Shown piece by piece: positions 11,712 to 64,000 of a DNA stretch of 64,000 bases. The stretch spans positions 643,053-707,052 of the forward strand of contig CAYVLY010000001.1 in NCBI GenBank assembly GCA_964452565.1, written 5' to 3'. The DNA comes from an uncultured Gammaproteobacteria bacterium (GTDB taxonomy: Bacteria; Patescibacteriota; Patescibacteriia; UBA9934). Within the stretch, counting starts at the first letter, position 1. Every line of letters begins with the position of its first letter. Under the pieces are notes generated by a model. That model saw only the letters and a program-made list of their open reading frames with translations. It was not told the DNA's origin and did no database searches. The position numbers and the translations under genes were made by a program.

Positions 11712-11780
11712 CATGGCGCTAAGTTCGACAGCCCATGCCTGAACGCCTTGCCGCACCTGCGGTCAGGCGTCATTCTTTTT

Positions 11781-35849: not shown

Positions 35850-37649
35850 CTACGGGCAGAAGCTGGGCTTCTTGTCCTTGCCCTTGAAATGCTCGCACAC
35901 CTTCTGCTTCGTGTCCTGGGGCTCTGAGGAGGACTCGTGATGGGTCGTTGAGCTCGAGGGCACGGTGGCACTTGCGTTCTGTGAGCCGTTGAAGGCGAAC
36001 GAAAGCCCGAGTAGTACGAAGGCCAGAGGCAGGATGACGAAGAAGGCGTGCAGTAGCATGCTCCCGCCCTTTTGTGCGAGGCGTTTCCGTTCGAGTGCGT
36101 TCCAGTGATGCGGGGCAAAGGACATGAACTCCATGATGAAGTAGATGAGCATTGCCGCGACCATGAACGTATGCCAGCCTGTCATGCGTGTGACCGACCT
36201 TGTCCAGACGATCGTATCGAAGACCCAGAACATGGCCCATCCAGCGCCGAATCCCAAGGGGATCAGGGTCCCCATGAGAATTGCCAGGTGACGAGACCAG
36301 GGTTCGCGTCCACGTCCATCGTTGGCCTGCTGGCCATTGTCATCGCGCAGGATCTGGGTACTGAACCTCTGTTCAGCCCAGCGCACCAGGGGTGCGATCA
36401 GGCTTTCCCGGCTGAACGGGTTGAACTTGCTCAGCAGAGATTTGATAGCCGTCGGCAGTTTGTGGTACGGGGCAAAGATCGACCGGAAGACTGTGAAGAG
36501 CAGCACACTGCTAAGTATATGGCTCCCACTCAGGCGTAGTGGCGGGTAGTGCCAGTCGCCTGTGAGCAGGACCAGGCAGTTCAGGAAGCCGGGCTTTTCA
36601 ATGAAGCCCAATCCGTAGGACCAGAGATCCACGCTGCGGAGATAAAGGAGCGCGATAGGGATGAACCCGATCAGCCAGAGGGCGCCGATGAACAGCAGGG
36701 CGCCTCCACCCCACCCCAGCCACTTTGGCAGCCTGTTCTGGGCGAGGTTTTCGCCCCAGGCATACAGCCGGTCCTTGGGTACAAGGGCGTCGAGCTTGTC
36801 GAGTGCGACCATGAGCCAGCCCATCGGGCCAGTGCAGTGACGCTTGGCTGTCATGATGAGCCGTCGTTGGTCTTCCCAGGGGCGCATACGAGCCCACTCG
36901 AAGCCATTGTCGTGATCGTAGGGATTGAGCGTACGTCGAACCTCGTTAGGATTACTCTCAATCGCTCGAGGCAGCCCATAGCTGATCTGCCACGCGTCAC
37001 CTTCGAGTCCGTTGCTATCGTTGTCGCCATTTCGGCGGGCGGGCGTGTCGTCGCTACGCTGCTCATCTTCTGCGGCAGCCAGAATACCCATAAGCACGTC
37101 GATTTCTCGCATGGTCCAGGTAGTCCAGATGCTCAGCGGGGGCTCAGGGATGGCTTGCATGTTCGGGAGTACGCCATGTGCCTCTTCTGCGGCGCTGCCC
37201 AACGCTTCCCGGACTTCTTGTTGGGTAGGGCGGTGGCCCTGTCGAGCACGAACGGCCAAGTTGCGCAGGCCAATGCCGATACGTTCGGACACTTCCTCGA
37301 CCGCCATGCCAGCAATCGGGTTGCCCTGCGCCAGCCTGCGGCCGACAAGTTCTCCGATGAGGTTGAGCGCAACAGCGGTCAGCTGTGGCGGCACAACCAT
37401 GAGCAGAAAGTTCACCAGGCGACCGATATGGCCATCAAGCGCGTTGAGGTTTTGGGGATCTGATCGGCTGATGGCGCGCTCGAGAGCTTCTGCCATGTGT
37501 TCGATCGGAATCTTGATATAGAGGGGGATGTCGTCCATGACGTGTACCTCGTTGTGAAGGTTGATTTGGTATGGGACGGGTCGTTGATCCGTCCCAAAGA
37601 CAGGGAGATCAAGACGGCTAAACTTAGCATTGAAAACAGCTTTTGTCAA
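35850..37649 (-). CDS. Hypothetical polytopic membrane protein (599 aa), GC-rich cassette cargo
   Basis: Multiple hydrophobic helices in the C-terminal half. No recognised catalytic motif. GC-rich codon usage. Confidence 0.4.
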   Translation of the reverse strand: MTKAVFNAKFSRLDLPVFGTDQRPVPYQINLHNEVHVMDDIPLYIKIPIEHMAEALERAISRSDPQNLNALDGHIGRLVNFLLMVVPPQLTAVALNLIGELVGRRLAQGNPIAGMAVEEVSERIGIGLRNLAVRARQGHRPTQQEVREALGSAAEEAHGVLPNMQAIPEPPLSIWTTWTMREIDVLMGILAAAEDEQRSDDTPARRNGDNDSNGLEGDAWQISYGLPRAIESNPNEVRRTLNPYDHDNGFEWARMRPWEDQRRLIMTAKRHCTGPMGWLMVALDKLDALVPKDRLYAWGENLAQNRLPKWLGWGGGALLFIGALWLIGFIPIALLYLRSVDLWSYGLGFIEKPGFLNCLVLLTGDWHYPPLRLSGSHILSSVLLFTVFRSIFAPYHKLPTAIKSLLSKFNPFSRESLIAPLVRWAEQRFSTQILRDDNGQQANDGRGREPWSRHLAILMGTLIPLGFGAGWAMFWVFDTIVWTRSVTRMTGWHTFMVAAMLIYFIMEFMSFAPHHWNALERKRLAQKGGSMLLHAFFVILPLAFVLLGLSFAFNGSQNASATVPSSSTTHHESSSEPQDTKQKVCEHFKGKDKKPSFCP

Positions 37650-37659
37650 CTTAGTGAGG

Positions 37660-37688
37660 TTGACAAAGTAGCTAAAATTGGCTACAGT
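37660..37688 (+). promoter_or_regulatory. Sigma70-like promoter inside the cassette (TTGACA, 17-nt spacer, TACAGT) for the two plus-strand cargo genes
   Basis: TTGACA at 37660-37665 and TACAGT at 37683-37688. The ribosome-binding site GGAGAA lies upstream of the ATG at 37769. Confidence 0.45.
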
Positions 37689-37768
37689 TAGACGTCTGCA
37701 GAGCTCTCGTGAACTCGAGTTTCTGTAAACAAGTTTACCCCCGTCCCCTTTCCAACCCGGAGAACACC

Positions 37769-38380
37769 ATGAACATCTTGTTCGTCCTTCTCGCCCTGCT
37801 CGGGCTCCAGAGCGCCGAGGCCGGTTCTTGCAAGGAGATCTGTCCTGCGAACAAGCCCTGCTTCATCCACTACGTCGACCGCGTGCATACCACGAACGGC
37901 TGGTACCCGTGTGGCCATGGCAATCGCGCCCAGGTCCACGTGCAGTACCAGTCCAGTCGCCGCCGTACGCAGACGCGTGGCCGCGTGCACTTCCAGACCA
38001 GCCCGACCCACTACCCACCCCAGCAGTCCTACGCGGTGCCGGTGGACCCGTACCACCAGCACGGCAACCCAGTCCAGCCGCAGCTGCAGGAGGCGCAGAT
38101 CGTCGAGAGCGAGGCCGAAATCCTGGCACAGGAGCACTGGGATCAGGAACGTCGCGCCGAAGTACAGCAGGCCGAGACTCAGCGGGCTGCTGCCGAGGCT
38201 CAGAGCGATCAGCTCAGGGGTCAGACCCAGCAGCAGCAGGCCAAGATCGACAGCTTGACCAAGCAGCGTGACGCAGCCCGCAAGAAGGCCGATGAGCAGG
38301 AGGCTCGCGCCGACGAGGCCGACGAGCTTCTGCTCGAAGTCGCCGAAGAGCTCGCAGCACCACAGTCGGGGGAGGAGTAG
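37769..38380 (+). CDS. Hypothetical secreted protein with a Q/A/E-rich coiled-coil C-terminal half (cassette cargo)
   Basis: Signal peptide MNILFVLLALLGLQSAEA and coiled-coil-like low-complexity sequence. The start is taken at the internal ATG that has a ribosome-binding site. Confidence 0.4.
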   Translation: MNILFVLLALLGLQSAEAGSCKEICPANKPCFIHYVDRVHTTNGWYPCGHGNRAQVHVQYQSSRRRTQTRGRVHFQTSPTHYPPQQSYAVPVDPYHQHGNPVQPQLQEAQIVESEAEILAQEHWDQERRAEVQQAETQRAAAEAQSDQLRGQTQQQQAKIDSLTKQRDAARKKADEQEARADEADELLLEVAEELAAPQSGEE

Positions 38381-38383
38381 TAC

Positions 38384-39019
38384 ATGTACAACCTCCTCCT
38401 CGTACTGTTGCTGATTGCAGCCAGCTTTGCTCAGTCTCGCCATGCACCCCCTCCGGTGCAGCAGGCACCGGTGACGCAGGCCCATCAGAGTTCGTATTCG
38501 ACCATGATCGATCGGAACCAGATGGTTCCAGGCCGGTGTTATGTTGGCATGCAAGTCACTGGTGCTGGTGCTGGCTGGTTCGAAGCCACCCTCACCAACG
38601 ACACTCCTGCGCCGGTTCGTCTGACCATCGATGGCATCACTGTGCGTGTGTGGAAGCCCATGCAGATGCTTGCTCAGACCGCAGATGGCCAGCAGACTGC
38701 TGTGACGCGGCCTTCGACCGACCGCGTGGTCGTGAACAATGGCGGAGCTGACCAGGAGAGCTATGTGCTCAACCCTGGCGAGCGCTGCCATATGGTGCTG
38801 CCAACCACGCAGCTGGACAAGGCTGGGCGCGCACGCTGGCTCGTGGTCATGGAACAGCTTCGTGCCGTGAATCCCAACGGTCAGTACGCCACACTCGGCG
38901 TACAGGGCAGGCTTCACACCACCGAACACTCGACCATGTTCAGTGTGAACGACTGGTGGGTCATGTTCCAGACCAACAGGAAGACTCTGAACTTCCGGTT
39001 CAGCACCAAGTTCCGCTAG
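38384..39019 (+). CDS. Hypothetical secreted protein (cassette cargo)
   Basis: Signal peptide MYNLLLVLLLIAASFAQS, followed by a terminator hairpin ccgcccctcctcttggagagggcgg. Confidence 0.4.
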   Translation: MYNLLLVLLLIAASFAQSRHAPPPVQQAPVTQAHQSSYSTMIDRNQMVPGRCYVGMQVTGAGAGWFEATLTNDTPAPVRLTIDGITVRVWKPMQMLAQTADGQQTAVTRPSTDRVVVNNGGADQESYVLNPGERCHMVLPTTQLDKAGRARWLVVMEQLRAVNPNGQYATLGVQGRLHTTEHSTMFSVNDWWVMFQTNRKTLNFRFSTKFR

Positions 39020-39105
39020 CACTTCTCCGCATTCGTCCGTCCGCCGCCCCTCCTCTTGGAGAGGGCGGTTTTGCTTATGTAAAAAATCCCCGGCAGAGCC
39101 GGAGA

Positions 39106-41453: not shown

Positions 41454-41569
41454 AAAATTTGAGGGATTTAAGTACATTGATTATATCAGAGCGGGCTTTG
41501 TGGTGAAAGAAAAATACCAACACCTTTCTAGGATGTGGTGGGCAGTGTGATTGACATGTATGAGGTGTC

Positions 41570-42385
41570 GTGATAGCTTATTTACTCACCTTAAGCTGGG
41601 AAACGGAGGTAAAAATGACCCAGTCACGAGATGAGAGAAAGGAGTTTCTCCGACAGGAGATGCTGCGCGATATGGAAGTCGGCATGGAGGCCGCGCGTCG
41701 GCAGGTTGGTGGGGCTGCCAAAAGTGGCGCCCACCCACTCAGGGTCTTCGAGATTGCTGGTCGTATGATGCACCAGTCCCTTGCAGAGAGGTTGGAGCTC
41801 CAGGAGGGTGACGAGGAGCTCATGCAAGAGATAGCTCGTGAGGAGCATGCTCACAGGCTGAGGTCTTCTATTGCCGGCTTGACCGAGGCCGCCAACGAGA
41901 TCAGCGCCCATTGGGGTCCGATGACCCAGCAACTTGAGCGTGATCGACAGGGTCCGGTGAACATCCAACCTGGTGATATCTGCGCTTTGCCAGGTGTGAT
42001 AGACAAGGAGAGGGACGCGCTGAAATCCACCGCACTGTATGTGGTTGATCGAGACGGGGATACGCTCGTTGTCTGTCCGCTGCATGTTGACATAACCGTG
42101 CATGGCATCAAGACCAAGCGCGACTACGATGTTGTCCTTGTTGGTAAGGATAGCCCCCTTTCTGCGTTTCCGACGAGCAAGACGGCCGTCCGGCCCTGGT
42201 TGACACGCAGGATTCCAGCGAGCGCAATCACAAATCACCCAGCCGCGCGGCTCTACGAAGAGCAGCATCAACGAGTCGTCGAGGCCTATGAGTTCAAGTC
42301 CAGTCGCCGCAAGCGGCCGTGGGCCAAGCCTGCCTGGGATGCCGCGTGGAGGTCTGTAATCCAGCGACTCGTGAGCAACAACTAG
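41570..42385 (+). CDS. Hypothetical protein in a GC-rich islet
   Basis: Clean ORF with elevated GC. No recognised motif. Confidence 0.35.
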   Translation: MIAYLLTLSWETEVKMTQSRDERKEFLRQEMLRDMEVGMEAARRQVGGAAKSGAHPLRVFEIAGRMMHQSLAERLELQEGDEELMQEIAREEHAHRLRSSIAGLTEAANEISAHWGPMTQQLERDRQGPVNIQPGDICALPGVIDKERDALKSTALYVVDRDGDTLVVCPLHVDITVHGIKTKRDYDVVLVGKDSPLSAFPTSKTAVRPWLTRRIPASAITNHPAARLYEEQHQRVVEAYEFKSSRRKRPWAKPAWDAAWRSVIQRLVSNN

Positions 42386-42473
42386 GGTGTGATTTCCTGC
42401 AACACACTCATACGTATCAACACCCAGCCATCTCGTGGTTGGGTGCTTATAGTTTCAACAAAGAAAACTTCGA

Positions 42474-43763
42474 TCAGTTCGAGATTTTTTGTTTGTAGTT
42501 TGTTGTGATGAATCCCGCTAACAAGACCCACGTCATCACAGCAAGGTCATTTTTGAAATAGGGGACGTCGACAAGGCCGTGTATGAAGATTGTTAGTAAG
42601 GCGGCGAAGAGGGCGAGTTTGATCGGATTTCGATAGTCGATGGATCCCCGATCGGAGTCGGGGATGACAAACGAACGAATAATCAAGATTCCGAACCAGA
42701 TAAGAACGATGAGGCCGATAAGGCCGAGTTCGGTCCAGGTGTTTAGGAAAATGTTATGTGGGTATTGGAAAATTTCGTATAGGGTCGCATCGTGGTATGG
42801 CTCAAGAGCTTCTGGGTAACCATTAAGCCCAGCGCCAAAGAAAGGCTTGTCTTTCAAGAGTTCGATCATTTCGGTCCACTGCGAGATTCGGACTTGTCCA
42901 GAATAGTCTTGGAGTAAGAGTTTCTCGCGTGAGGTGGGGATCAAGAGCGAGAATAAGACCAATAGGACCGATAGGGCCAATAAGACGTATTTTGTTTTTC
43001 GTTTGATACTTGAGAATAGTAATGCAATAACCACAGCGGCTGGTATTGCAACTAGAGCGGCCTCAGTTTGTCCAAGGATTATCGCAATTACGCCGAGGAG
43101 GATTGTGAGGATCGGTAAGATTCGTGAGATCCCTCGACTGCGCTCGGGGTGGAGAAAGAGAAGAATAGCGTTCAGGGATACAATCGGCGCCAGGAAAAGC
43201 CCCAATGCATTGGGATAATCAAAGAAACTTGTTACGCGGAGCTCAATGTCCCATGGGGTTGGGATGCCGATGCCTGTAAGGTACTGCACGATTGCAAAGA
43301 TCGAAATAACGATTGCCGATAAGCTCAAGGCTTGTAGAGATCGGATCCAATCGTTTCGATTGAACGTAGTGATCATCATGGTAGCCACGAGAATTGGCTC
43401 AATGAAGTATGCTTTCCAGATTCCAAGCGCTGAGAAAAGGTCTGGCGCAACAACAGCGCCAAAGCTTGCAGCTGCAATAAGCAGAAGAGTTGGTTGGATC
43501 CATACAGTGCCTCCACCTCGAGCAAGGCGAGAGGTTTTCTTGAGAAGATTTTTTCTGGTGTTGGGACGTGATAATCGATAAGCCCAGATGATCACACAGA
43601 TCAAAATCAAAACCTCCAGGGCTGTTGAGGGAATCGGCCCAACATCGAATCGTAAAAGATAAATCGGAAGAAGCCCAGATAACAAAACAAGCGCCATCTT
43701 AAGATTGCGCCATGCAAGGATTGCGAATGCGATGAATAGGATTGTTAGGGGGAAGAGGTACAT
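42474..43763 (-). CDS. Polytopic membrane protein, O-antigen ligase/Wzy-like
   Basis: About 10-12 TM helices with a larger periplasmic loop. It lies next to a Wzx-like flippase gene. Confidence 0.4.
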   Translation of the reverse strand: MYLFPLTILFIAFAILAWRNLKMALVLLSGLLPIYLLRFDVGPIPSTALEVLILICVIIWAYRLSRPNTRKNLLKKTSRLARGGGTVWIQPTLLLIAAASFGAVVAPDLFSALGIWKAYFIEPILVATMMITTFNRNDWIRSLQALSLSAIVISIFAIVQYLTGIGIPTPWDIELRVTSFFDYPNALGLFLAPIVSLNAILLFLHPERSRGISRILPILTILLGVIAIILGQTEAALVAIPAAVVIALLFSSIKRKTKYVLLALSVLLVLFSLLIPTSREKLLLQDYSGQVRISQWTEMIELLKDKPFFGAGLNGYPEALEPYHDATLYEIFQYPHNIFLNTWTELGLIGLIVLIWFGILIIRSFVIPDSDRGSIDYRNPIKLALFAALLTIFIHGLVDVPYFKNDLAVMTWVLLAGFITTNYKQKISN

Positions 43764-43863
43764 AGTTAGTTATCGAAGACCTCCCCTGGCCCCTCCTTCG
43801 TAAGGAGGGGAACCGAAATCTTGACCCTCCCCCTTACGAAGGGGGAGACGGAGGGGGTTTTAT

Positions 43864-45300
43864 CTATGGCTGGCTTATTGGTGGCTTCTCTGGTAGGAAC
43901 AAGTTAATCACTTCTTTTGGCTTTGGTCCACCAAGCGCCGTTAGTGCCGCTACGTATATGATCATTGCGCAAGGTATAAGTATCAAGACATGTACGTTTG
44001 GCAAGATCACCAGAATGATGAACATCACGACACTTGCGAGGATCGCCTTGGAGAGCATCTTGAGAGATGGGAAGTACTTGCTTACACGCCAGACAACATA
44101 GAAGGTGAGAGTTCCAATCAAGGCTTCTGAGAAAAGTGTCAGCCATGCTGCAGCCCACATTCCATGGGTTGGGATGAAGTAGATATAACCAGCAACAGTT
44201 AGAACAGCAACAGCTAAGTAGCCCCATGTCATCACTTTCTGTTTATTAAGCGCCACGATCGCGTGTCCAAATAAAGAGTTCCAGAACACAATAGCTGCAG
44301 CAGGTCCTAAGATCATAAGCATACGTCCAGATTCTCTAAACTCCATTCCAGCAACGAGCTGCATTATCGGCACCCCAAGCGCAATTGTCCCAAAGATAAT
44401 CGGAGTTGCAGCAATGGACAGGAAGTCAAACGATCTTTGCATGTAGGTTTTGAATCTCTTAGTGCGTGAGGCGCTCCAGGCTGCAACAAGAAGAGGGAGG
44501 GCGATCCCCATATACATCACAGGTATTGCAGCAACCACGTCCACCACCTTATAGGCAGCTCCATAAAGTCCAGTCTCTGCATTGTCTCTAAAGATTGATA
44601 AAAAGACGATGTCACCGCGTAAGTAGATAAGGTTAAAGAAGATCGATGCTCCGATCGGCCAGCTACGCAAGATGATTTTCTTCCAAATGGCTGTGTTGAG
44701 TCTTGGCTTGAATGAAACTAGTGCTCTAGTCTGTGTGAGCATGAGCATGAGCTGGATTGCGTTTCCAATAACAAGCAACCAGATGACATCAACTACGCCA
44801 AAATCAAATATCGGAGCCAACAAAACCCCAATTAACACCGCGGTTCGGTTAGCAAGCTCAGCAATGACCGCTTTAGACATGAGCATACGTTTTTGAAAGA
44901 CACCGACAAACATCTGGGAGGTTGTTCCAAAGAGATAGGAGAATGCGCCGACCGCAATGGCAAGTTGGATAATATTATCGTACGGGAAAAAGATAGCAAC
45001 AACTGGTGCAAGTGCTAAGAAAACAATCGCGGATATTATTCTCAGGGTCAAAAGGTTTCCGAGAAGCGTTGCCTCATCTGCCTTTTTCTCTGAGATCATT
45101 TGCGTTGTTGTGAGTGTAAGGCCAAAATCGACAATCACTGCAAATATCGATAGAAACGATAGAGCAATTGTAAATTGACCATAACCTTCAACACCGAGAT
45201 GTCGAGCCAAGACTGCAACTGTAAATACACCCAGGAGTGTGGCTGCGGTCTTTCCAATGATCTGGATAGCAGCATTTTGTGCTAGCGCTTTTGTTTTGTT
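43864..45300 (-). CDS. Polysaccharide biosynthesis flippase (Wzx/MOP superfamily)
   Basis: N-terminus KTKALAQNAAIQIIGKTAATLLGVFTVAVLARHLG, typical of Wzx/MurJ-type exporters, with about 14 TM helices. The start is taken at the internal MNKTKAL. Confidence 0.55.
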   Translation of the reverse strand, partial: NKTKALAQNAAIQIIGKTAATLLGVFTVAVLARHLGVEGYGQFTIALSFLSIFAVIVDFGLTLTTTQMISEKKADEATLLGNLLTLRIISAIVFLALAPVVAIFFPYDNIIQLAIAVGAFSYLFGTTSQMFVGVFQKRMLMSKAVIAELANRTAVLIGVLLAPIFDFGVVDVIWLLVIGNAIQLMLMLTQTRALVSFKPRLNTAIWKKIILRSWPIGASIFFNLIYLRGDIVFLSIFRDNAETGLYGAAYKVVDVVAAIPVMYMGIALPLLVAAWSASRTKRFKTYMQRSFDFLSIAATPIIFGTIALGVPIMQLVAGMEFRESGRMLMILGPAAAIVFWNSLFGHAIVALNKQKVMTWGYLAVAVLTVAGYIYFIPTHGMWAAAWLTLFSEALIGTLTFYVVWRVSKYFPSLKMLSKAILASVVMFIILVILPNVHVLILIPCAMIIYVAALTALGGPKPKEVINLFLPEKPPISQP

Positions 45301-45386
45301 CATAATAGCTACAGTATAACAGTGCTCGGTGCTCGGTGCACAGCTTTGTGATGAAATATGATAAAATGTGTGTGTAATAAAAATAT

Positions 45387-46142
45387 ATGGCAAAGGAATT
45401 GAAAAGACTATTAAAATCGATTGGCCTAATGCCTAGCGAGGCAAAGGTCTATTTGGCAGCTTTGGAGCTCGGCGCGTCGCCAGTGCAGGCTATTGCAACT
45501 AAGTCTGGCATATCCCGGACAGCAGCATATGATGCGATAGGTATGCTTTCTGAACGCGGGCTTATGAGTAGCTCGATTGTCGGCAAAAAGCAGCTGTACG
45601 CATCAGAGGATCCAGAGCGGCTTGTATCTTATTTGAAAGAAGAGCAGCAAAAGTTTAAAACAAAAATCGAGGATGTTACCCGATCAATCGATGCTTTGAA
45701 GCTGTTGGGTGGCGGCGCTAAGCCGATTGTAAAAGTATACGAGGGGAAGGAGGCGCTTTCAGCGTACTTTGATTATATTGAAAGGGTGAAGCCATCTGAG
45801 TTTGATGAAATCTCAAACGTTGATGATGTTTATAATTATTTGGAAGAGAACGTTCTACTTGCTGCTAGAAAGGCATATAAGCACACACCAAAGAATGCTC
45901 GAATTTTACTCCATGGTCCTGCCAGGAATCCAAGAAAGGGCTATCAGTATAAGATGTTGCCAGAGGATTTAGAATTTAGAGGCAATATAACGATTTTCGA
46001 TAAATACATTTTCTTTATTTCATATATCGGTTCAATGACAGTCATCGTCATGGAAAGTGAAATGTTTGCAAATTCGATGAGGGCATTGTTTGAAACAATG
46101 TGGAGATCTGGGAAAAAGGCAAAGTTTATTTCAAAGAAATAG
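45387..46142 (+). CDS. TrmB-family helix-turn-helix transcriptional regulator
   Basis: N-terminal HTH segment LMPSEAKVYLAALELGASPVQAIATKSGISRTAAYDAI. Confidence 0.6.
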   Translation: MAKELKRLLKSIGLMPSEAKVYLAALELGASPVQAIATKSGISRTAAYDAIGMLSERGLMSSSIVGKKQLYASEDPERLVSYLKEEQQKFKTKIEDVTRSIDALKLLGGGAKPIVKVYEGKEALSAYFDYIERVKPSEFDEISNVDDVYNYLEENVLLAARKAYKHTPKNARILLHGPARNPRKGYQYKMLPEDLEFRGNITIFDKYIFFISYIGSMTVIVMESEMFANSMRALFETMWRSGKKAKFISKK

Positions 46143-47554
46143 GAAAACCGCCGGCGCAGGGCACCGGCGGTGGCACGAAGGGTCTGTTCTAGACTCCACC
46201 CATGTTGGCCTCCTCCGAGAAAATTCAGAAGTCTTCCTATATCCGCGTTCGAAACGGTCGTACGTGGTGATGGTTTTTGACCCCGATGGGGTCGTTTGAC
46301 TTTTGATTCTCCGGTGGAGTTATGGGGGTCGTCGCATAGAACGGGATTCGCTAGGCGTTCATGACGACTCCAGGTGTTTTTTGCAGCGGGATGCCGCGGA
46401 CGAACACGCGCGCTGGGCGAGCGTGACCCAGTACTATACATGAAAAGTGGTTAGTTGTCAATAGGAAGATAGAAAGCTAAAAGAAGAAAGCCTGAAGTAT
46501 ACAGAAAAAACCGATGGAAATCGGGTTTTTTTTTGTTTAATTTTAGCTAAATATGCTCAAAATGAGCTATTTTTGTACATTAAGGGCTTGACAGATTTTT
46601 ATAGTTGTGATAGGTTTCTTTGTTCGCTGGTGAGCCAAATAGCTCAAGCGAGCACTTTACAGCCTTAAATCGCCACCCTTTGCAGTATCCTGAGTTGATC
46701 AAGGTATTACAAAGGGGTAGGTGATGCGCTAAGCCATAATCCCTGGGAGCCACGCAGGTGGTAATGCAGTATGTCCCAATCGAGCTCATGGGTTACGACT
46801 TTAAGTCGACCCCGCCGCTGGACACGGCAGGCATCCTGATGCATGAGTAAGAATACTGCAATGACCGATATCACCCGAGGCACGCCATTCAGGCATCCTC
46901 TCCATCGAGAGTAAGGATGGGTATGTGACAGGGAATGATAGGTAAAACAGTAGGCCCTCCTATGTCCAAAGGTAGGACCGCTGAGCGTGATTCGTGTTTG
47001 GGGCGGAGCCGCATACTGCGGCCCCCCCACTTCGAAATAATATTCACTTGGTCCTCATCTGAACGTATCCCCCATGCGCGTTCAGATGAGGATCTGGAGG
47101 ATACGTGGAAACCTCGACCCCTGTTGTGTACGGCCGATAACCACCGCTGCCTTGGCAGCATAAAAGAGGCAGAAACGGTTCATCTGGAGGGTTATTAATA
47201 AAGCTATAGCCTTACCAACTGAGAGAGAGCCCTGGATTTATTCCAGGGAACTGGGAAGAGAGACCCAGTTCTCTGGAATGGATCACCAAACCCTAACACA
47301 GGAGTAGCTGATCACTACTCATACGTGTGGGCCCCTAACGGGCCAGCGAGCTTGGTTCACCACCTCTCCTTCGAAGCTTCGGTATCAAGGCAAGGTGGAA
47401 CTGACCAGCTCCAAACCTCGAGTAATAGTGACGCGGCGTAGCGGAAAGATCATCCGTCGTCACGTCACCGAACCCAAGTAGTCGAATTCGTCGACGTAAA
47501 TCTTGGGCCGCCCCTGCTAGGAGATTGACAAAGTCGATAATCTAGGAGGTGCGT

Positions 47555-47620
47555 ATGGAAACAATAATCTATCTAAGTTATTCAATAATCATCGGAATGT
47601 TGTTAGCTGTAGGTGTATAG
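47555..47620 (+). CDS. Speculative 21-aa hydrophobic peptide with a strong Shine-Dalgarno sequence, inside an otherwise ORF-free region. It is followed by a long stem-loop.
   Basis: AGGAGGT lies 5 nt upstream of the ATG. The peptide is METIIYLSYSIIIGMLLAVGV. A 15-bp imperfect stem follows at 47624-47675. Confidence 0.15.
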   Translation: METIIYLSYSIIIGMLLAVGV

Positions 47621-48446
47621 AATTGCAGGTAGCTGAGAGTTGATTCGATCGAATCGTTTCTCAGTTGCCTGCAAGTAGGACAATGCAGGCCAACACGCAA
47701 GGTGATGATTCTAGGGCAAATATGACGGCCCACAGTGAACAGAATAGCTTCGTGCATCTGTTAAGGATCATTCCTATATACTGGCGCTCGTTCGTCGCAC
47801 TGATTCCCAGCAAGGGGTCAGGATCCGCCCATGTCGTGGCGGGCAGTATGTAGCAAGACACTGTTAAGTGCACATGGCCCACCATAGCCGTGGCACGAAG
47901 AGAGAGTGATACATTCAGAGAAACGCGGTCGAGCGCGTATTCCTGACACCTCTTAGTCATTCCCATTTGTGTCTGTGGTTGGGCCCCTCCTGGTGGCCAT
48001 CCTTGCGCGGTGCATAGGCTCCCACAGGCATAACCTTCTTGAGCGGTAGACTACACAAGCCGAGCCTGGATGACCCATAGAGGCCATAGGGGTTGTCGTG
48101 AGACCGGCTGACCAGTAGCTACCGCAAAGCGGGTGGGGAGATGAAAGCCCCCATCTGATATTCAACCTCTTTCGCATTGGCTCTGGAGTAACACGTACGC
48201 CCCTTGGCTACCCTACAAGATACACGGGGTAGAGCGAGGAACGCGTGTCAGAGCTTCGAGAACGAGTGCGGGTGAGCCACGGGCCCCGCAACGTTCAACC
48301 CCATCCCCCTCTCCACAAGGAGGTGGTCAGGCGCAAGCCAGACCGCTTAGACCTCCAAACGTGTGTGAGGGGGTCTTTGTTTTGTGTGAACATCCTGTTG
48401 AAAACATATTTTATCCACCCGCCCAGGTGCGCTATAATCAAAACGC

Positions 48447-50267
48447 ATGAAATCAATGCAAATTGTTATGAATGTATTACAAAAGTGGGGAATATTAACC
48501 GCATTACTTGTTTGCGGGTTCTTTTTTATCTCAACTGCAGTTCAAGCTGCATCATATGAGGCTGTACCCGTTACAATCTCAGGAAGTGGTGAGCTAACCA
48601 TGGCCCCGGGCGAAGTCAAAGAGGTGAGCGTTACTTTTTTGAATAGAGGGAATATTACTTGGTTCAACGACGGCGATGGATATATTTCACTATACACATA
48701 CGATCCAAAGTATCGATCAAGTTCATTTGATCCTGGGACATGGCTTGGTCCAGATCGAGTAAAACGGATCATCGAGGCTGTGGTAGAACCTGGAGAAACA
48801 GCGAGTATGACATTTGAGCTGCACGCGCCAGATACTGAGGGGTCTTATGAAGAGGTTTTTCATCTAGCATCTGAAGATACGGCTTGGGTTGACGGTGGGG
48901 AGATAAGTTTTTCCATCAATGTAACAAGCGAGATTCAGGAATCTTTGACTGCTTTAGAGTCTCAAGACGGTGATAGCGGATTAGGAGCTGAGCTAACACT
49001 TTTGAGCGCGAATCAGGTAAAGGCAAAGGCTGGAACACCGATATTACTCACGGCTGGATTTGAGAATATTGGAACAACAAGTTGGAGTTCGTATTCATTG
49101 AATGAAATGGATGTTGCATATGCATCAACATCTGTGAGTTTTGACCATCCATCTTGGTCAGGGACACAACTTGCGTATGTATCTGATGTCATTGCACCAG
49201 GCGAGGTGGCATATGTGAGCTTTGCTTTGATGTCGCCTGATGTTAACGGGACTCACACTGCCGAGTTCCAGTTCTCAGCAAATGGTGAGGATATTGAGAA
49301 TGCGATTGTTAAGCTTCCAGTGGAAGTGACTGGCGGCGCAGCAGCAGTTGATGACGAGGCAGATCAGAGTAGTGAAATTGTTTTGGACGAAGAGCCAATC
49401 ATAAGGGTTGGGATTCTAACTATAGACGAGGAAACTGATTATGAGACAGTGGTTACTTCGTATGAGTCAGATTTTTATCTTGAGGATACAGAGGGTAACT
49501 TGCTGGCCGAGCTCAATGCTGGAGAACTGGTTACGGGCTACTACGATGGAGGCAAGTATTATTTTGACCGTGGACGTGGCCAAGAGGTCTCATCATATGG
49601 ACTTCGATGGGTGCCAGAGGAAGAGAATGCAGTCATGACCATTGTGAACTTTGATTATCGCGAGACGCGCAATGGCGGGTATGCGTACAACACATATCGA
49701 AATATTTTGGAGCTAAGATATAATGATTACAAAGATCGAACTTGGGTTATTAATGAGCTTCCGATCGAACAGTATTTATACGGACTGGCAGAAACATCGA
49801 ATGTGTCTCCGAGCGAATATCAGAAAGCACTTGTTACAGCGGCAAGGACATATGCTTACGCAAATGCTCGTTATGATGTGTCAGAGAGGGGTGAGTATAT
49901 GCATGTGAATGCTTATGCGGACGATCAAGTATATCGTGGTTATGAGCACGAAGAAGGTTCACCAACGATTGTGCAAGCGGTTGTAGATACGCGAGGTGTT
50001 ATCGTGACCTATGATGCTGAGTTGGCTATTACACCGTACTTCTCAAGGTCAGATGGAAGAACAAGGGACTGGTCCGAAGTCTGGGCTGGTTCAAAGGCGT
50101 GGTGTAAGTCAGTGGAGGTTCCTTGGGATGAGGGTAATACGCTTTGGGGGCATGGTATTGGAATGTCAGCACTCGGCGCTCTCCATATGGCAAACGATGG
50201 TTACGAGTGGGACGAGATTTTGAAGTATTTCTATACTGACATTGAACTGGAGCAGTGGTGGGAGTGA
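48447..50267 (+). CDS. SpoIID/LytB-domain protein with N-terminal Ig-like repeats and a signal peptide
   Basis: C-terminal SpoIID pattern EQYLYGLAE...ALVTAARTYAY...YFSRSDGRTRDWSEVW. Confidence 0.7.
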   Translation: MKSMQIVMNVLQKWGILTALLVCGFFFISTAVQAASYEAVPVTISGSGELTMAPGEVKEVSVTFLNRGNITWFNDGDGYISLYTYDPKYRSSSFDPGTWLGPDRVKRIIEAVVEPGETASMTFELHAPDTEGSYEEVFHLASEDTAWVDGGEISFSINVTSEIQESLTALESQDGDSGLGAELTLLSANQVKAKAGTPILLTAGFENIGTTSWSSYSLNEMDVAYASTSVSFDHPSWSGTQLAYVSDVIAPGEVAYVSFALMSPDVNGTHTAEFQFSANGEDIENAIVKLPVEVTGGAAAVDDEADQSSEIVLDEEPIIRVGILTIDEETDYETVVTSYESDFYLEDTEGNLLAELNAGELVTGYYDGGKYYFDRGRGQEVSSYGLRWVPEEENAVMTIVNFDYRETRNGGYAYNTYRNILELRYNDYKDRTWVINELPIEQYLYGLAETSNVSPSEYQKALVTAARTYAYANARYDVSERGEYMHVNAYADDQVYRGYEHEEGSPTIVQAVVDTRGVIVTYDAELAITPYFSRSDGRTRDWSEVWAGSKAWCKSVEVPWDEGNTLWGHGIGMSALGALHMANDGYEWDEILKYFYTDIELEQWWE

Positions 50268-50330
50268 TTGCCAGAACCCAGCCGAAGGCCCTGAGCCTGT
50301 CGAAGGGAACCCAGAACACAGATTAAATTA

Positions 50331-50354
50331 AAGGCCGGCGCGAGCCGGTTTTTG
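50331..50354 (+). terminator. Intrinsic terminator after the SpoIID-like gene
   Basis: Hairpin ccggcgcgagccgg followed by a T-run. Confidence 0.6.
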
Positions 50355-50356
50355 AA

Positions 50357-50398
50357 TAAAAAAAAGAAGACCAGCATCGAGGTGCTAGTCTTGAGGGG
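50357..50398 (-). terminator. Minus-strand intrinsic terminator, copy 1 of a duplicated element
   Basis: Minus-strand reading: cccccctcaagactagcacctcgatgctggtct followed by tcttttttttatt. Confidence 0.55.
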
Positions 50399-50615
50399 GT
50401 GAAGTGGACAGCGGACGCTCCGCTGAAACAGGTGCCGCTTCTTGACCTGATCCAGCGTAGCGCCGCTGCCCACCCGGGGCCTGTAGGAAGTTGACCACAC
50501 CTCCACCAAGCGTGGCTCAGATCTTCTCGATCTGACCGTCCAAGACCCCTGTGGCTCCCGTTCCACCCGGTAAGAGTAGAGTAACAGAAACATGTACCTT
50601 GTCAAGGACGGTCTT

Positions 50616-50663
50616 AAATAAAAGAAGAAGACCAGCATCGAGGTGCTGATCTTGAGGGGGGGT
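50616..50663 (-). terminator. Minus-strand intrinsic terminator, copy 2 of a duplicated element
   Basis: Near-identical hairpin agatcagcacctcgatgctggtct followed by tcttcttttattt on the minus strand. Confidence 0.55.
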
Positions 50664-50904
50664 TTGTGAGTGGCGGCCATGCTGGTGGCTCCCGTCCGAA
50701 CCAGTCAGCGCGACCGGCCACCACTCACACGAGGCCTCCGCAGGTCCAAGCTGCCCGCCGTGTCCGCACAAAGCACGGCGTTTTACCCCCCCTGGCAGAG
50801 GGGTAGCCTCCTGCAGTGACCCCGTTGCTCACCCTCCGTGAGATTTGAGTATAAAGACTATAAACAAAAAAGCACAACCTGTCAATAGTTGTGCTGCCTG
50901 ATTC

Positions 50905-51474
50905 TTAAACAAGCTCAGCAAGGAGTTTTTGGAAAAGTCTCAGCGGCATTCCCCTGAGCTGATCCTCAGTAGCTTCAGAGTATTTGATGTATGGCTTGAT
51001 TAAAGGGTCTTCTAACTGAATTCCACCTGCGCAATGGAGTACGTGTCCTTTTTTGATAATCTGATCAACAACCTCGTCCGGAAGCTGTTCTTTGAGAAGG
51101 GTTTTTGAAATATCAAGTCCATCAGCGCGCTCTCCATCTGATGTGTCAATTAAAACCATGCCATTTATTATCTCTGCCGGATGTTTGTGATAGCTTAAAA
51201 TAAAAGACCGAGCTTCTTGCTTGTCTTTTGGCTTTTCGCGGATCTGGCCATCACAAACTACAACCTGGTCAGATGCAATGATAATTGCATCGCCATCAAC
51301 TTGCCCCTCGATCTCATCTGCTTTGGCATGTGCAATCTTCAAAACAAGCTCACGCGGATCATCACATCTTATTGCCTGCTCGTCGATCTCAGGCTTAATA
51401 ATCTCAAAATCATATCCTCGGCGTTCTAGTATCGCCCGCCTGCCTTTAGAAGATGATCCAAGGATCAACCTCAT
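50905..51474 (-). CDS. maf: Maf-family nucleoside triphosphate pyrophosphatase
   Basis: N-terminus LILGSSSKGRRAIL and overall Maf pattern. Confidence 0.75.
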   Translation of the reverse strand: MRLILGSSSKGRRAILERRGYDFEIIKPEIDEQAIRCDDPRELVLKIAHAKADEIEGQVDGDAIIIASDQVVVCDGQIREKPKDKQEARSFILSYHKHPAEIINGMVLIDTSDGERADGLDISKTLLKEQLPDEVVDQIIKKGHVLHCAGGIQLEDPLIKPYIKYSEATEDQLRGMPLRLFQKLLAELV

Positions 51475-52019
51475 AAACCACTTGATGCGTCTCCATGCCT
51501 TAGCTTGGCTTGCTCAACCAACTCGGAAACCCGAGCCTTAATTTTTACAGGGTCATTTACTCGTTTGAACTCAAAACGTTCACGGGTTCCAGCAGTCTGA
51601 ATGTATACATAACCATAGCTCAAGATTGTTGCTAGGAATCCATGCGTCTCAGCGGTCACATCTTGCACTTGGTTTAAGTGAAGCTCAGATATAACACGGG
51701 AGAATAGTCCTTTTTGTTCTATATTTATCACCCTCCGTGTTGTTACGATCCATGTATCAAGATAATAGTCAGTAAACATCGTCATGAGGATCGCCAGGGT
51801 GAAAAGCATGTAGATCGACAAGAGCAGGGTTCCAAACTGACCCCAATATGTAGTCCAATCAACCCCATTGTCTGTCAAAAGATAATAAAATATAAAGGGG
51901 ATTGCAACAAAGACTGCTGCAAAGAATAGAATCTTGAATATCTCAATCCAGTGTCTGCGCAAAAATAAAATCGGCTTTTCATCACGCTCCTGGTTTGGTA
52001 GCTGTCTTAGGCTGATCAT
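51471..52019 (-). CDS. Membrane protein with a bacterial PH (bPH_2/YdbT-like) domain
   Basis: Two TM helices followed by a PH-like region, EQKGLFSRVISELHLNQVQDV. Confidence 0.5.
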   Translation of the reverse strand: MISLRQLPNQERDEKPILFLRRHWIEIFKILFFAAVFVAIPFIFYYLLTDNGVDWTTYWGQFGTLLLSIYMLFTLAILMTMFTDYYLDTWIVTTRRVINIEQKGLFSRVISELHLNQVQDVTAETHGFLATILSYGYVYIQTAGTRERFEFKRVNDPVKIKARVSELVEQAKLRHGDASSGL

Positions 52020-53599: not shown

Positions 53600-54217
53600 T
53601 TAAAGCATCTCATGGAGAATGTCGATCACCGGATGGGCGGCGGTTCGGGAGATGGCGACCCATGCTTGCTCGATCATCTGCATGGGTGTGAAGTCGCCAT
53701 GTAGCCGGACCAGGCTGATCTGCTCGTGACTGAAGGCTTTGGTCAGGGGCACGCCAGGACCCCCGTAGTAGGGCCCGTCCGGTCCGTTGGAGCAGGGGAC
53801 GTAGAACTTCGCATACGCAAACGTGATGCTATTGGCGATGAACCAATCCTTCAGGGCGCGCAGTTCAGTTGCGCCGCCATGCAGGACGCGGTAGGCCTCG
53901 TTCGGAACAGGGCCGTCGGGGGTCTTCATCAGCGGCATGGGTCCGAAGATCCAGCAGAGCTCTCTGTTTTCATCGTCGAGCTGCACCAGCTCCAGGAACC
54001 TGCCAGCAAGGTTGGGTCGAACTGCGACGATGCCGCAGTTGTGGCAGATCTCGAAGTCTGCGGTCAGGGGGTCGATTTCTGGTGCCATTTTTCCTCCAAA
54101 TGCTTCCCAAGCAGCTGCCAGGGTCAGCTTTGGTGTTAAGTCCAGACTGCTTCCGAAATGGTCAGCGCCTAGACAGGACTCTGGGATGGCGATCCCAAAG
54201 ACGAAATGATAGCTCAA
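53600..54217 (-). CDS. Hypothetical protein in a GC-rich islet on the 5' side of tRNA-Leu(TAA)
   Basis: ORF with GC-rich codon usage. No recognised motif. Confidence 0.35.
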   Translation of the reverse strand: MSYHFVFGIAIPESCLGADHFGSSLDLTPKLTLAAAWEAFGGKMAPEIDPLTADFEICHNCGIVAVRPNLAGRFLELVQLDDENRELCWIFGPMPLMKTPDGPVPNEAYRVLHGGATELRALKDWFIANSITFAYAKFYVPCSNGPDGPYYGGPGVPLTKAFSHEQISLVRLHGDFTPMQMIEQAWVAISRTAAHPVIDILHEML

Positions 54218-60780: not shown

Positions 60781-60783
60781 GGA

Positions 60784-63849: not shown

Positions 63850-64000
<151 letters not shown>

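What the first reader, a model, noticed from the sequence alone, without database searches (positions are those of the whole stretch)
46143..48446. A 2.3-kb ORF-free, GC-elevated, hairpin-dense region between the TrmB-like regulator and the SpoIID-like gene
Seen in sequence: no frame has an ORF with a plausible protein; the longest are about 100 codons of low-complexity junk. Yet the region contains many long perfect or near-perfect stems, for example cctcatctgaacg...cgttcagatgagg (13 bp) and gcaggtagctgagag...ctcagttgcctgc. It also has a plus-strand terminator at about 46512-46540 and a tiny SD-preceded 21-aa hydrophobic ORF (47555-47620). Inference: one or more large structured RNAs, a decayed mobile element or prophage remnant, or cargo from an organism using a different genetic code. 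Candidates include an ornate large RNA class, an ORF-less group II intron or an RNase P-like RNA. A few RNase P-like strings, such as aggccataggggtt, were noticed but are not in canonical order.
Basis: seen in the sequence. Interest (0 to 1): 0.55.

Follow-up and report, generated by a model that had tools for sequence, protein, structure and literature searches.

The report
Two hidden RNA genes beside TrmB
The "empty" 2.3 kb is two conserved, back-to-back RNA genes in a Candidatus Uhrbacteria genome (a short RNA studded with 3-4-codon mini-genes, and a 1.76-kb folded RNA with one 21-residue membrane-peptide gene) that match no known RNA family.

Summary
Window 46143-48446 has no long ORF under any genetic code tested, is moderately GC-elevated, and folds far better than shuffled sequence. 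It is neither decayed DNA nor an assembly chimera. An independent assembly matches it exactly, and five further related sequences carry a homologous element.

The region is composite:
- A minus-strand unit of about 285 nt (46426 to 46140). It has a near-consensus promoter and its own terminator. Its conserved parts are ribosome-binding sites followed by mini-ORFs (MNA*, MGGV*).
- An AT-rich spacer with a plus-strand terminator.
- A plus-strand unit of about 1.76 kb (46623-48385). It has a conserved extended -10 promoter, a nearly invariant 250-nt structured core, a hairpin that hides the ribosome-binding site, a 21-codon ORF under purifying selection (METIIYLSYSIIIGMLLAVGV), a fast-evolving 500-nt stretch, and a conserved tail and terminator.

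Both units travel with the upstream TrmBL2-like regulator gene as a roughly 3-kb module. Very close relatives lack the module, and more distant ones carry it in other genomic contexts.

There is no Rfam, Pfam, phage or plasmid match. It is not a group II intron, RNase P RNA, or a known ornate RNA. The function is inferred, not shown: most likely a structure-gated, dual-function RNA.

The parts
45387..46142 (+). TrmBL2-like winged-helix regulator gene (251 aa). It is co-inherited with the two RNA units as one module.
   Evidence: Pfam TrmB HTH. The AF2 model's best PDB matches are TrmBL2 and TrmB. Its presence or absence tracks the RNA units.
46433..46461 (-). Promoter of the minus-strand unit (TTGACA-17-TATAGT, 11 of 12 matches).
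   Evidence: Nearly invariant in the close relatives. An equivalent TTGACA sits at the same relative position in about 18 more distant loci.
46140..46426 (-). Mini-ORF RNA of about 285 nt. It is mRNA-like and lies antisense to the 3' UTR of the TrmB mRNA.
46351..46373 (-). SD (CUGGAG) plus mini-ORF AUG AAC GCC UAG (MNA*).
   Evidence: Sequence. Conserved as GGAGUCRUCAUGAACGC in three of the four aligned close relatives; L010 differs there.
46189..46217 (-). SD (GGAGGAGG) plus mini-ORF AUG GGU GGA GUC UAG (MGGV*).
   Evidence: The SD-AUG-GGN-...-stop pattern recurs in nearly all orthologous loci.
46137..46171 (-). Intrinsic terminator of the minus-strand unit (11-bp GC stem, then UUUCCUAUUU). 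It abuts the TrmB stop codon.
   Evidence: Compensatory changes in the stem. Equivalent terminators in other loci.
46511..46533 (+). Hairpin plus U-run. It is the plus-strand terminator for read-through from TrmB, and also reads as a terminator on the minus strand.
   Evidence: A hairpin plus T-run sits at the same place in most of the 22 spacers.
46535..46552 (.). Conserved spacer box GTTTAATTTTAGCTAAAT, with palindrome TTTAGCTAAA at 46542-46551. Candidate operator or UP element.
   Evidence: The function is inferred only.
46588..46616 (+). Promoter of the long RNA: TTGACA, 17-nt spacer with extended -10 TG, then TAGGTT.
   Evidence: It scores 10 of 12 with TG in L005, L011 and L014.
46623..48385 (+). 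Long structured transcript of about 1.76 kb. Ends are inferred from the promoter and terminator.
46623..46663 (+). 5' terminal stem-loop (UUCGCUG...AGCGAG).
   Evidence: Inner stem covaries: GAGC/GCUC in the window, GAGG/CCUC in L005.
46664..47041 (+). 378-nt segment present only in the window and L005.
   Evidence: Absent from L010, L011, L014 and L053.
47042..47290 (+). Nearly invariant structured core: a long hairpin with an invariant UCCCCCAUGC loop, a multi-helix domain, and a roughly 27-bp hairpin with an alternative pairing.
   Evidence: Mean column identity is 81-88% over the core, against about 73-76% nucleotide identity for alignments spanning the neighbouring genes. Covariation in 6 sequences. 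Model R1 finds only the clade members among the loci held.
47511..47549 (+). Hairpin that pairs the sORF's Shine-Dalgarno (AGGAGG, 47544-47549) with upstream CCCCUGCUAGG.
   Evidence: Helix 25: 98.6% of cells paired, 2 compensatory pairs.
47555..47620 (+). 21-codon ORF METIIYLSYSIIIGMLLAVGV, a single hydrophobic helix.
   Evidence: Same length in 5 lineages. Variable sites by codon position are 10/4/18, and dN/dS is 0.1-0.3.
47623..47674 (+). Strong hairpin directly after the sORF stop. It has no U-run.
   Evidence: G-U to G-C or A-U changes are valid only on the plus strand.
47675..48189 (+). Fast-evolving 3' segment. The window's version has no detectable homologue in the relatives.
   Evidence: No blastn match in 47680-48183. 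Weaker z-scores of -1 to -1.7.
48190..48385 (+). Conserved 3' tail hairpins and intrinsic terminator (stem about 48349-48376, then UUUGUUUUG).
   Evidence: 9 pairs with compensatory changes. nhmmer finds the tail in all full-length relatives.

Best explanation
The gap between the TrmB-like gene and the SpoIID-like gene holds two divergently transcribed RNA genes. Together with the TrmBL2-like regulator they form a roughly 3-kb accessory module in Candidatus Uhrbacteria.

Unit 1, minus strand, about 285 nt. It starts at a near-consensus promoter and ends at its own terminator next to the TrmB stop codon. Its conserved parts are not helices but two ribosome-binding sites, each followed by a 3-4-codon ORF. 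It therefore most likely works by being engaged by ribosomes. The TrmB mRNA appears to read through to the terminator at 46511-46533, so unit 1 is also a cis-antisense partner of the TrmB 3' UTR.

Unit 2, plus strand, about 1.76 kb. It is a long structured RNA whose only coding element is a 21-residue membrane peptide. The peptide's Shine-Dalgarno is locked in a conserved hairpin. I propose a dual-function, structure-gated RNA. The nearly invariant 250-nt core would act as the sensor or binding platform (or as a regulator in its own right), and a conformational or processing event would free the ribosome-binding site so the peptide is made. The TrmBL2-like protein probably controls the divergent promoters through the conserved spacer box.

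Shown: the anatomy, its conservation, the covariation, purifying selection on the sORF, the mini-ORF enrichment, and module gain or loss.

Inferred: the transcript ends, translation, the gating, and the regulator link.
For: Real sequence: an independent assembly is 100% identical over 6.5 kb.

Homologous ORF-free regions lie between the same genes in L005, L010, L011 and L014, and part of one is in L053.

Only two promoters recur, at fixed aligned positions. The minus-strand one is found by scan in all five full-length sequences. The plus-strand one is found by scan in three and is conserved in the alignment in all five. The same divergent pair lies downstream of TrmB orthologues of 38-56% identity.

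Structure: 30 pairs carry double changes, against 12.6 +/- 2.5 in shuffles and 4-9 with partners slid. 90% of cells are paired, against about 40% slid. The tail and terminator covary, and the core covaries in 6 sequences. The plus strand is favoured (-161.7 vs -143.1 kcal/mol).

sORF: dN/dS is 0.1-0.3 with saturated synonymous sites. A related 23-24-aa ORF (METLMFLVW...) sits at the analogous place in L018, L019 and L020.

Mini-ORFs in 22 minus-strand RNAs: 64 SD+start sites against 11.6 +/- 3.5 in shuffles; 41 ORFs of 6 codons or fewer against 2.2 +/- 1.5; 29 with second codon GGN against 0.8. The reverse complement gives 15, 4 and 2.

Module behaviour: it is absent from L003, L046-L051 and L052, where SpoIID lacks the upstream module (Polysacc_synt abuts SpoIID in L003 and L046-L051). 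This includes L051, whose partial Polysacc_synt is 91% identical to the window's. The module sits in other contexts in L019, L020, L024, L027, L028, L030, L035 and L038.
Against: No transcript data: both 5' and 3' ends are predicted only.

There are only 5-6 related sequences for the long RNA, two of them close to each other. The tested structure was derived from those same sequences, so the covariation statistics are favourable by construction.

The core could not be found outside the clade by covariance model. L012 shows only a marginal sequence match (E about 0.01).

About 900 nt of the RNA (the 378-nt insertion and the 515-nt variable part) is poorly conserved or clade-specific, so much of the length may carry no function.

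No ligand, partner or phenotype is known. The mini-ORF peptides are not conserved in sequence, so why ribosomes should be recruited is unexplained.
Confidence: 0.6

Rival explanations
1. A type I toxin-antitoxin-like cassette. The 21-aa hydrophobic peptide is a membrane toxin. Its long folded mRNA keeps the ribosome-binding site hidden, and one of the RNAs acts as antitoxin.
For: The peptide's size and hydrophobicity resemble Ibs- or ShoB-type toxins (own knowledge). The SD is sequestered in a conserved hairpin. The module is accessory and patchily distributed.
Against: No conserved antisense promoter overlaps the sORF or its leader. Cognate minus- and plus-strand RNAs pair no better than non-cognate ones (-77.0 vs -74.2 +/- 11.5). 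By my recollection a leader of about 930 nt and a trailer of about 760 nt are far beyond known type I mRNAs. Several module-bearing lineages have no sORF (L012, L023).
Confidence: 0.15
2. A single purely noncoding giant RNA (ribozyme or RNP scaffold, like OLE, GOLLD or ROOL), in which the tiny ORF is incidental.
For: The core is more conserved at nucleotide level than the neighbouring genes, including loop nucleotides. The RNA has many covarying helices. The region has the GC-rich, ORF-free look typical of such RNAs.
Against: The sORF shows a clear coding signature. Roughly half the RNA is variable or clade-specific. In relatives the plus-strand RNA before its first terminator is only about 115-310 nt. 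No Rfam large-RNA family matches.
Confidence: 0.15
3. The plus-strand RNA is merely a long regulatory 5' leader of the SpoIID-like gene.
For: It has the same orientation and lies directly upstream. In L018, L019 and L020 a short leader-like RNA with a terminator precedes downstream sequence.
Against: A conserved intrinsic terminator ends the RNA. The SpoIID promoter region is conserved and is retained unchanged in relatives that lack the module. The module also occurs away from SpoIID.
Confidence: 0.05
4. Non-functional DNA: a decayed gene, a mobile-element or prophage remnant, foreign DNA read in another code, or an assembly chimera.
For: Relative to very close genomes the whole module is an insertion or deletion. 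The 47675-48189 segment is unique to this lineage.
Against: The sequence is identical in an independent assembly. Relatives conserve the promoters, terminators, core and sORF. No long ORF appears under any code. There are no Pfam remnants, no phage or plasmid similarity, and no terminal repeats.
Confidence: 0.03

Closest known systems
Dual-function RNAs such as Staphylococcus aureus RNAIII (encodes the 26-aa delta-haemolysin) and SgrS/SgrT (comparison from own knowledge)
   Same: A highly structured, promoter-to-terminator RNA whose small ORF takes up only a few percent of its length. It is transcribed divergently from a neighbouring unit, across a short regulatory spacer, next to a regulator gene.
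   Different: About 3.5 times longer than RNAIII. No sequence or Rfam relationship. No target genes are known. It is found in CPR bacteria, and its size varies from about 115 nt to 1.76 kb between relatives.
Type I toxin mRNAs (tisB, ibs/sib, zorO, shoB; own knowledge)
   Same: A short, very hydrophobic peptide. Its ribosome-binding site is occluded by conserved mRNA structure.
   Different: No overlapping or complementary antitoxin RNA was found. The UTRs are far longer. Some module-bearing relatives lack the sORF.
Large ornate bacterial ncRNAs (OLE, GOLLD, ROOL, raiA, HEARO) in Rfam
   Same: A large, GC-rich, ORF-poor intergenic region with many covarying helices and invariant loop nucleotides.
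   Different: No covariance-model match at gathering score or at E<=10. It contains a selected ORF and large non-conserved stretches.
Minigenes and start-stop mini-ORFs (lambda bar minigenes, own knowledge; E. coli start-stop sites, bioRxiv 10.1101/520783; axe-txe minigene, PMC8708949, titles and abstracts seen)
   Same: A strong Shine-Dalgarno and a start codon followed almost at once by a stop. The peptide sequence itself is not conserved.
   Different: Here 2-3 such units sit on a dedicated small RNA with its own promoter and terminator. They are conserved across loci whose TrmB orthologues are only 38-56% identical to the window's, with a marked preference for GGN or AAC as the second codon.
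Enterococcus prgQ/prgX-type loci (regulator, small hydrophobic peptide gene and counter-transcripts; own knowledge)
   Same: A regulator gene next to a small hydrophobic peptide ORF, with overlapping sense and antisense transcription at the regulator's end.
   Different: The regulator is TrmBL2-like, not RRNPP. The peptide lacks a basic N-terminus. There is no evidence of export or import genes.

Membership tests
Known Rfam large ncRNAs (OLE, GOLLD, ROOL, HEARO, raiA and others) | Match to the family covariance model at or near the gathering score | tested here: not met
   The whole window at gathering score gives only tRNAs and an LSU rRNA end. The region at E<=10 gives only sub-threshold noise. 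Twenty related loci give nothing at gathering score.
Group II intron (ORF-less) | Domain V/VI catalytic core recognisable by the Rfam group II intron model; six-domain order | tested here: not met
   No group II intron hit, even at E<=10.
RNase P RNA | Conserved P4 and CR-I to CR-V core in canonical order (Rfam RNase P models) | tested here: not met
   No hit. The 'aggccataggggtt' string lies in the non-conserved segment 47675-48189.
tmRNA / tRNA-like | tRNA-like domain plus tag reading frame (ARAGORN, Rfam) | tested here: not met
   ARAGORN finds four tRNAs elsewhere in the window and no tmRNA.
Type I toxin-antitoxin | Small hydrophobic toxin ORF | tested here: met
   21 aa with GRAVY 1.84, conserved.
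Type I toxin-antitoxin | Antisense or partially complementary antitoxin RNA acting on the toxin mRNA | tested here: not met
   No conserved antisense promoter. No cognate-specific pairing between the two RNAs.
Type I toxin-antitoxin | Toxicity of the peptide | not testable with these tools
   Needs expression experiments.
Dual-function (coding plus regulatory) RNA | Independent transcript with a translated small ORF | tested here: inconclusive
   The promoter, terminator and coding signature are conserved. Transcription and translation have not been observed.
Dual-function (coding plus regulatory) RNA | RNA-level function separate from the ORF | tested here: inconclusive
   The core is conserved above coding-gene level and covaries. 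No target or partner has been identified.
TrmB-family regulator (neighbouring gene) | N-terminal winged HTH, coiled coil and C-terminal PLD-like domain | tested here: met
   Pfam PF01978. The PDB profile search hits TrmB and TrmBL2. Foldseek's top hits are TrmBL2 chains (E 3e-12), and the C-terminal part matches the Nuc/PLD fold.
IS200/IS605 element RNA (considered after L053) | The RNA lies within the element's ends and is linked to TnpA/TnpB | tested here: not met
   In L053 the Y1 transposase unit, flanked by its own hairpins, is inserted into the spacer upstream of the intact plus-strand promoter. No transposase is present in the other loci.

The most novel reading that the evidence does not exclude
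A lineage-specific regulatory module of CPR bacteria built from two previously undescribed RNA classes and co-inherited with a TrmBL2-like DNA-binding protein. One class is a small RNA whose conserved function is to load ribosomes on 2-5-codon mini-ORFs (a translation-sensing or ribosome-titrating device, and an antisense partner of the regulator's mRNA). The other is an evolutionarily expandable structured RNA, from about 115 nt to 1.76 kb, that carries a gated membrane-peptide gene.
Probability: 0.3. Interest if true: 0.75.

Novelty: new variant of a known kind. Interest (0 to 1): 0.62.

Why it matters
CPR/Patescibacteria genomes are small and almost entirely uncultured, and I know of very few RNA genes described for them beyond the universal ones. 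A 3-kb module that is mostly RNA, kept under selection in such reduced genomes, implies an important function.

The minus-strand RNA gives a clean comparative example of conserved mini-ORFs where the act of translation, not the peptide, appears to be selected.

The plus-strand RNA shows how a short RNA can grow fifteen-fold by acquiring modules while keeping an invariant core.

Both are concrete targets for metatranscriptomics, structure probing and heterologous tests. They also show that gene callers place spurious ORFs here (a 165-aa call in the Logan contig).

Tried and rejected
- Alternative genetic codes and single-stop reassignments: no gene-sized frame.
- blastn against phage and plasmid collections: no match.
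- Paralogues or terminal repeats within the window: none.
- Pfam on ten region ORFs, and PADLOC and NCBIfam on TrmB, SpoIID and the sORF: nothing informative.
- ARAGORN for tmRNA: none.
- Single-sequence nhmmer with the L012 RNAs: no cross-hits.
- Covariance model R1 of the core: finds only the clade members. L012 and the other distant loci are not recovered.
- Viral-contig pattern scans: zero hits for a 22-mer. Six hits for a 17-mer were chance, with no R1 match.
- Trans-pairing between the minus- and plus-strand RNAs: cognate pairs are no better than non-cognate.
- A hammerhead-like CUGAUGAG at the 5' end of the plus-strand RNA in L005, L010 and L014: the window has CUGGUGAG and Rfam gives no hit, so I dropped it.
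- A pseudoknot between the UCCCCCAUG loop and the downstream CUGGAGGAU: possible by eye, but RNAalifold prefers a hairpin extension. Unresolved.
- Window-wide enrichment of SD+mini-ORFs: none (5 found, 5.6 expected). The signal is specific to the orthologous minus-strand RNAs.
- Literature searches found no description of this locus.
Full report
**Observation**

Window 46143-48446 lies between a TrmB-family gene (45387-46142, +) and a SpoIID/N_BRCA1_IG gene (48447-50267, +).

- ORFs: no frame is open for more than 129 codons under code 11. Reassigning TGA, TAG or TAA does not create a gene-sized frame.
- GC content: 0.513 against 0.415 and 0.452 for the two neighbours and 0.474 for the window. 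It is uneven, from 0.316 in an internal spacer to 0.597 at the 3' end.
- Folding: in 200-nt windows the energy lies 2-8 standard deviations below dinucleotide shuffles over most of the region, and near zero in the flanking genes.
- The quoted hairpins, the terminator and the 21-codon ORF are all present.

**Not an artefact and not a known RNA**

- A Logan assembly of run SRR8146440 reproduces window 43781-50301 without a mismatch.
- Rfam 15 finds nothing in the region at gathering score or at E<=10 beyond noise, and nothing in 20 related loci at gathering score.
- ARAGORN finds no tmRNA.
- There is no DNA similarity to phage or plasmid collections, no repeat of the region elsewhere in the window, and no Pfam signal in ten of its ORFs.

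**Relatives**

The flanking proteins identify the organism as Candidatus Uhrbacteria. Searches through SpoIID, through TrmB, and through a spurious ORF that overlaps the core brought in related loci.

- Four further full-length versions of the region lie between the same two genes: L005 (=L002), L010, L011 and L014. A partial sixth is in L053.
- The L005 version is identical in four different metagenome assemblies and in a partial fifth contig.
- An alignment to L002 that spans the neighbouring genes and the first two thirds of the region is about 74% identical overall. Within the region, conservation is mosaic.

**Anatomy**

A promoter scan of the five full-length sequences finds only two sites that recur at fixed aligned positions.

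- The minus-strand promoter, TTGACA-17-TATAGT at 46461-46433, is found in all five and is nearly invariant.
- The plus-strand promoter is TTGACA at 46588, a 17-nt spacer with an extended -10 TG, then TAGGTT/TAGATT. The scan finds it in three sequences, and the alignment shows it conserved in all five.
- Between them is an AT-rich spacer. It holds a hairpin plus U-run (46511-46533) and a conserved box, GTTTAATTTTAGCTAAAT.

The same layout recurs downstream of about 18 more distant TrmB orthologues (38-56% identity): a minus-strand promoter, a spacer of 115-162 nt (most with a plus-strand terminator), and a plus-strand promoter. The region is therefore two opposed transcription units, not one element.

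**Minus-strand unit (about 46426 to 46140)**

It ends in an 11-bp GC hairpin followed by UUUCCUAUUU, next to the TrmB stop codon. Relatives have equivalent terminators.

Consensus folding of this unit is weak (-17 kcal/mol). What is conserved are Shine-Dalgarno sequences followed by a start codon and, within 2-5 codons, a stop. In the window these are CUGGAG-N5-AUG AAC GCC UAG (MNA*) and GGAGGAGG-N6-AUG GGU GGA GUC UAG (MGGV*).

Counts across 22 orthologous RNAs:

| Measure | Observed | Shuffles | Reverse complement |
|---|---|---|---|
| SD+start sites | 64 | 11.6 +/- 3.5 | 15 |
| ORFs of 6 codons or fewer | 41 | 2.2 +/- 1.5 | 4 |
| Second codon GGN | 29 | 0.8 | 2 |

The peptides differ between loci (MGGV, MGNC, MGSV, MGTG, MF, MW and others), so the peptide itself is probably not what is selected. 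The pattern is not a general property of the window.

The hairpin after the TrmB stop has no U-run on the plus strand, and a plus-strand terminator sits at 46511-46533. The TrmB mRNA therefore probably runs antisense across this whole unit. That is an inference.

**Plus-strand unit (about 46623 to 48385, 1.76 kb)**

In order along the RNA:

- A 5' stem-loop whose inner helix covaries.
- A 378-nt segment found only in the window and L005.
- A 250-nt core at 47042-47290. Its mean column identity is 81-88%, higher than the nucleotide identity of alignments spanning the neighbouring genes, and it includes an invariant UCCCCCAUGC loop.
- A moderately conserved stretch.
- A hairpin (47511-47549) that pairs the AGGAGG Shine-Dalgarno with an upstream CCCCUGCUAGG. 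It is 98.6% paired, with two compensatory pairs.
- The 21-codon ORF.
- A 27-bp hairpin whose substitutions are G-U to G-C or A-U changes, valid only on the plus strand.
- About 515 nt with no detectable homologue in the relatives.
- A conserved tail and an intrinsic terminator with compensatory changes.

On the 5-sequence alignment of 47030-47700, 30 of 180 predicted pairs show changes on both sides. Shuffles give 12.6 +/- 2.5, and sliding the partners gives 4-9. Ninety percent of cells pair, against about 40% slid. A caveat applies: the structure was predicted from these same few sequences, and two of them are close relatives.

The plus strand folds better than the minus strand (-161.7 vs -143.1 kcal/mol, and -60.8 vs -46.3 for the tail).

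**The small ORF is a gene**

All five full-length versions keep 21 codons:

- METIIYLSYSIIIGMLLAVGV
- METIIYISYSLVIGALLAIGV
- METMIYIGYSVTIGLLLAMFV
- METIICISYSLIIGALLAVGV
- METIICISYSLIIGALLAVGI

Variable sites fall 10/4/18 by codon position. Synonymous sites are near saturation, while pN is 0.02-0.25, giving dN/dS of 0.1-0.3.

A second clade (L018, L019, L020) has a 23-24-codon ORF beginning MET(L/I)..FLVW. It sits immediately after the terminator of a plus-strand RNA of about 135 nt. Other module-bearing lineages (L012, L023) have none.

**The module**

The backbone order Wzy, Polysacc_synt, SpoIID, bPH, RuvB is conserved.

- The TrmB gene and both RNA units are present together in the window, L005, L010, L011, L014, L012 and L023.
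- They are absent together in L003, L004 and L046-L051, where Polysacc_synt abuts SpoIID, and in L052, where a different gene lies upstream of SpoIID. L051's partial Polysacc_synt is 91% identical to the window's.
- In L019, L020, L024, L027, L028, L030, L035 and L038 the TrmB and RNA arrangement lies in other contexts.
- No terminal repeats mark the junctions.
- The regulator models as wHTH, coiled coil and a PLD-like domain, and is closest to archaeal TrmBL2.
- In relatives the plus-strand RNA before its first terminator is about 115-135 nt (L027, L030, L025, L018-L020) or about 310 nt (L012). The window clade's 1.76 kb is therefore an expansion. L012 retains a weak match to the core.

**Interpretation**

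Shown: two conserved promoter-to-terminator units, RNA-level selection on a structured core and tail, a selected 21-aa membrane-peptide gene whose ribosome-binding site is paired, mini-ORFs as the conserved feature of the opposite unit, and co-inheritance with a TrmBL2-like regulator.

Inferred: the long RNA is a dual-function or structure-gated transcript, broadly like RNAIII or a type I toxin mRNA. The short RNA acts through ribosome loading and as an antisense partner of the TrmB 3' UTR. The regulator acts on the shared spacer.

A type I toxin-antitoxin reading is weakened by the lack of any antisense promoter or cognate pairing. A purely noncoding giant RNA is weakened by the coding signature and by the large non-conserved parts. 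A SpoIID leader is weakened by the conserved terminator and the independent SpoIID promoter. Decay, foreign code and chimera are excluded.

**Novelty**

No Rfam family matches, and full-text searches found no description of this locus. The kinds are known: structured or dual-function RNA, and mini-ORFs. The combination, the size range and the phylogenetic setting are new. Function remains untested.

Noticed in passing
window 35850-39022, 60127-62097, 41570-42385, 50231-50680, 10834-11756, 53600-54217: Several other GC-rich islands (0.54-0.62, against about 0.45 background). Their long ORFs have no Pfam hit, and some carry signal peptides or TM segments. Relatives differ at these places: window 41509-42507 and 50263-51482 do not align to L002, and L005 has a Peptidase_S11 gene after SpoIID where the window has a GC-rich stretch followed by a Maf gene.
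   Followed up: partly
window 63851-64000: The 5' end of a 23S rRNA gene, with no 16S rRNA anywhere in the preceding 63.8 kb. The rRNA genes appear to be unlinked.
   Followed up: no
L053 50-640: In one relative, an IS200/IS605-type Y1 transposase unit flanked by CCCCG...CGGGG hairpins has inserted into the inter-promoter spacer. It sits just upstream of the conserved GTTTAATTTTAGCC box and leaves the plus-strand promoter and core intact.
   Followed up: partly
L011 5824-6582: The TrmB orthologue carries an in-frame stop codon at the position of a nearly invariant Gly (G58), while both RNA units are intact. This is a nonsense mutation or a sequencing error. Other genes on the contig read normally in code 11.
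   Followed up: partly
L018 about 1753-1827, L019 about 1682-1753, L020 about 6084-6158: A second family of tiny hydrophobic ORFs (METLMFLVWMGAISTIAGLSWNI and relatives). They start a few bases after the terminator U-run of the short plus-strand RNA, with no Shine-Dalgarno, and are followed by a long GC-rich stretch.
   Followed up: partly
L005-L009, intergenic 2466 nt: The homologous region is identical, with zero mismatches, in four metagenome assemblies and in a partial fifth contig. One clonal population appears to be widespread.
   Followed up: no
window 45944-46441 (-): The public gene call on the Logan contig places a 165-aa 'protein' here. It overlaps the TrmB 3' end and the mini-ORF RNA, has no Pfam hit, and is almost certainly spurious.
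   Followed up: yes
window 47093-47101, 47183-47191, 47541-47549: The motif AUCU(A)GGAGG occurs three times in the long RNA. The third copy is the sORF's Shine-Dalgarno. The first two lie in the invariant core and are paired in the consensus fold.
   Followed up: partly
L048 10551-11800, L049 8310-9559: Relatives that lack the module carry bAvd and reverse-transcriptase (RVT_1) genes a few kb downstream. This looks like a diversity-generating retroelement.
   Followed up: no
window 46245-46259 with 46137-46146 (minus strand): The conserved AUAGGAAGACUUCUG of the mini-ORF RNA can pair with the UUUCCUAUU tract after its own terminator stem (compensatory changes). This long-range helix would enclose the MGGV mini-ORF and the terminator.
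   Followed up: partly
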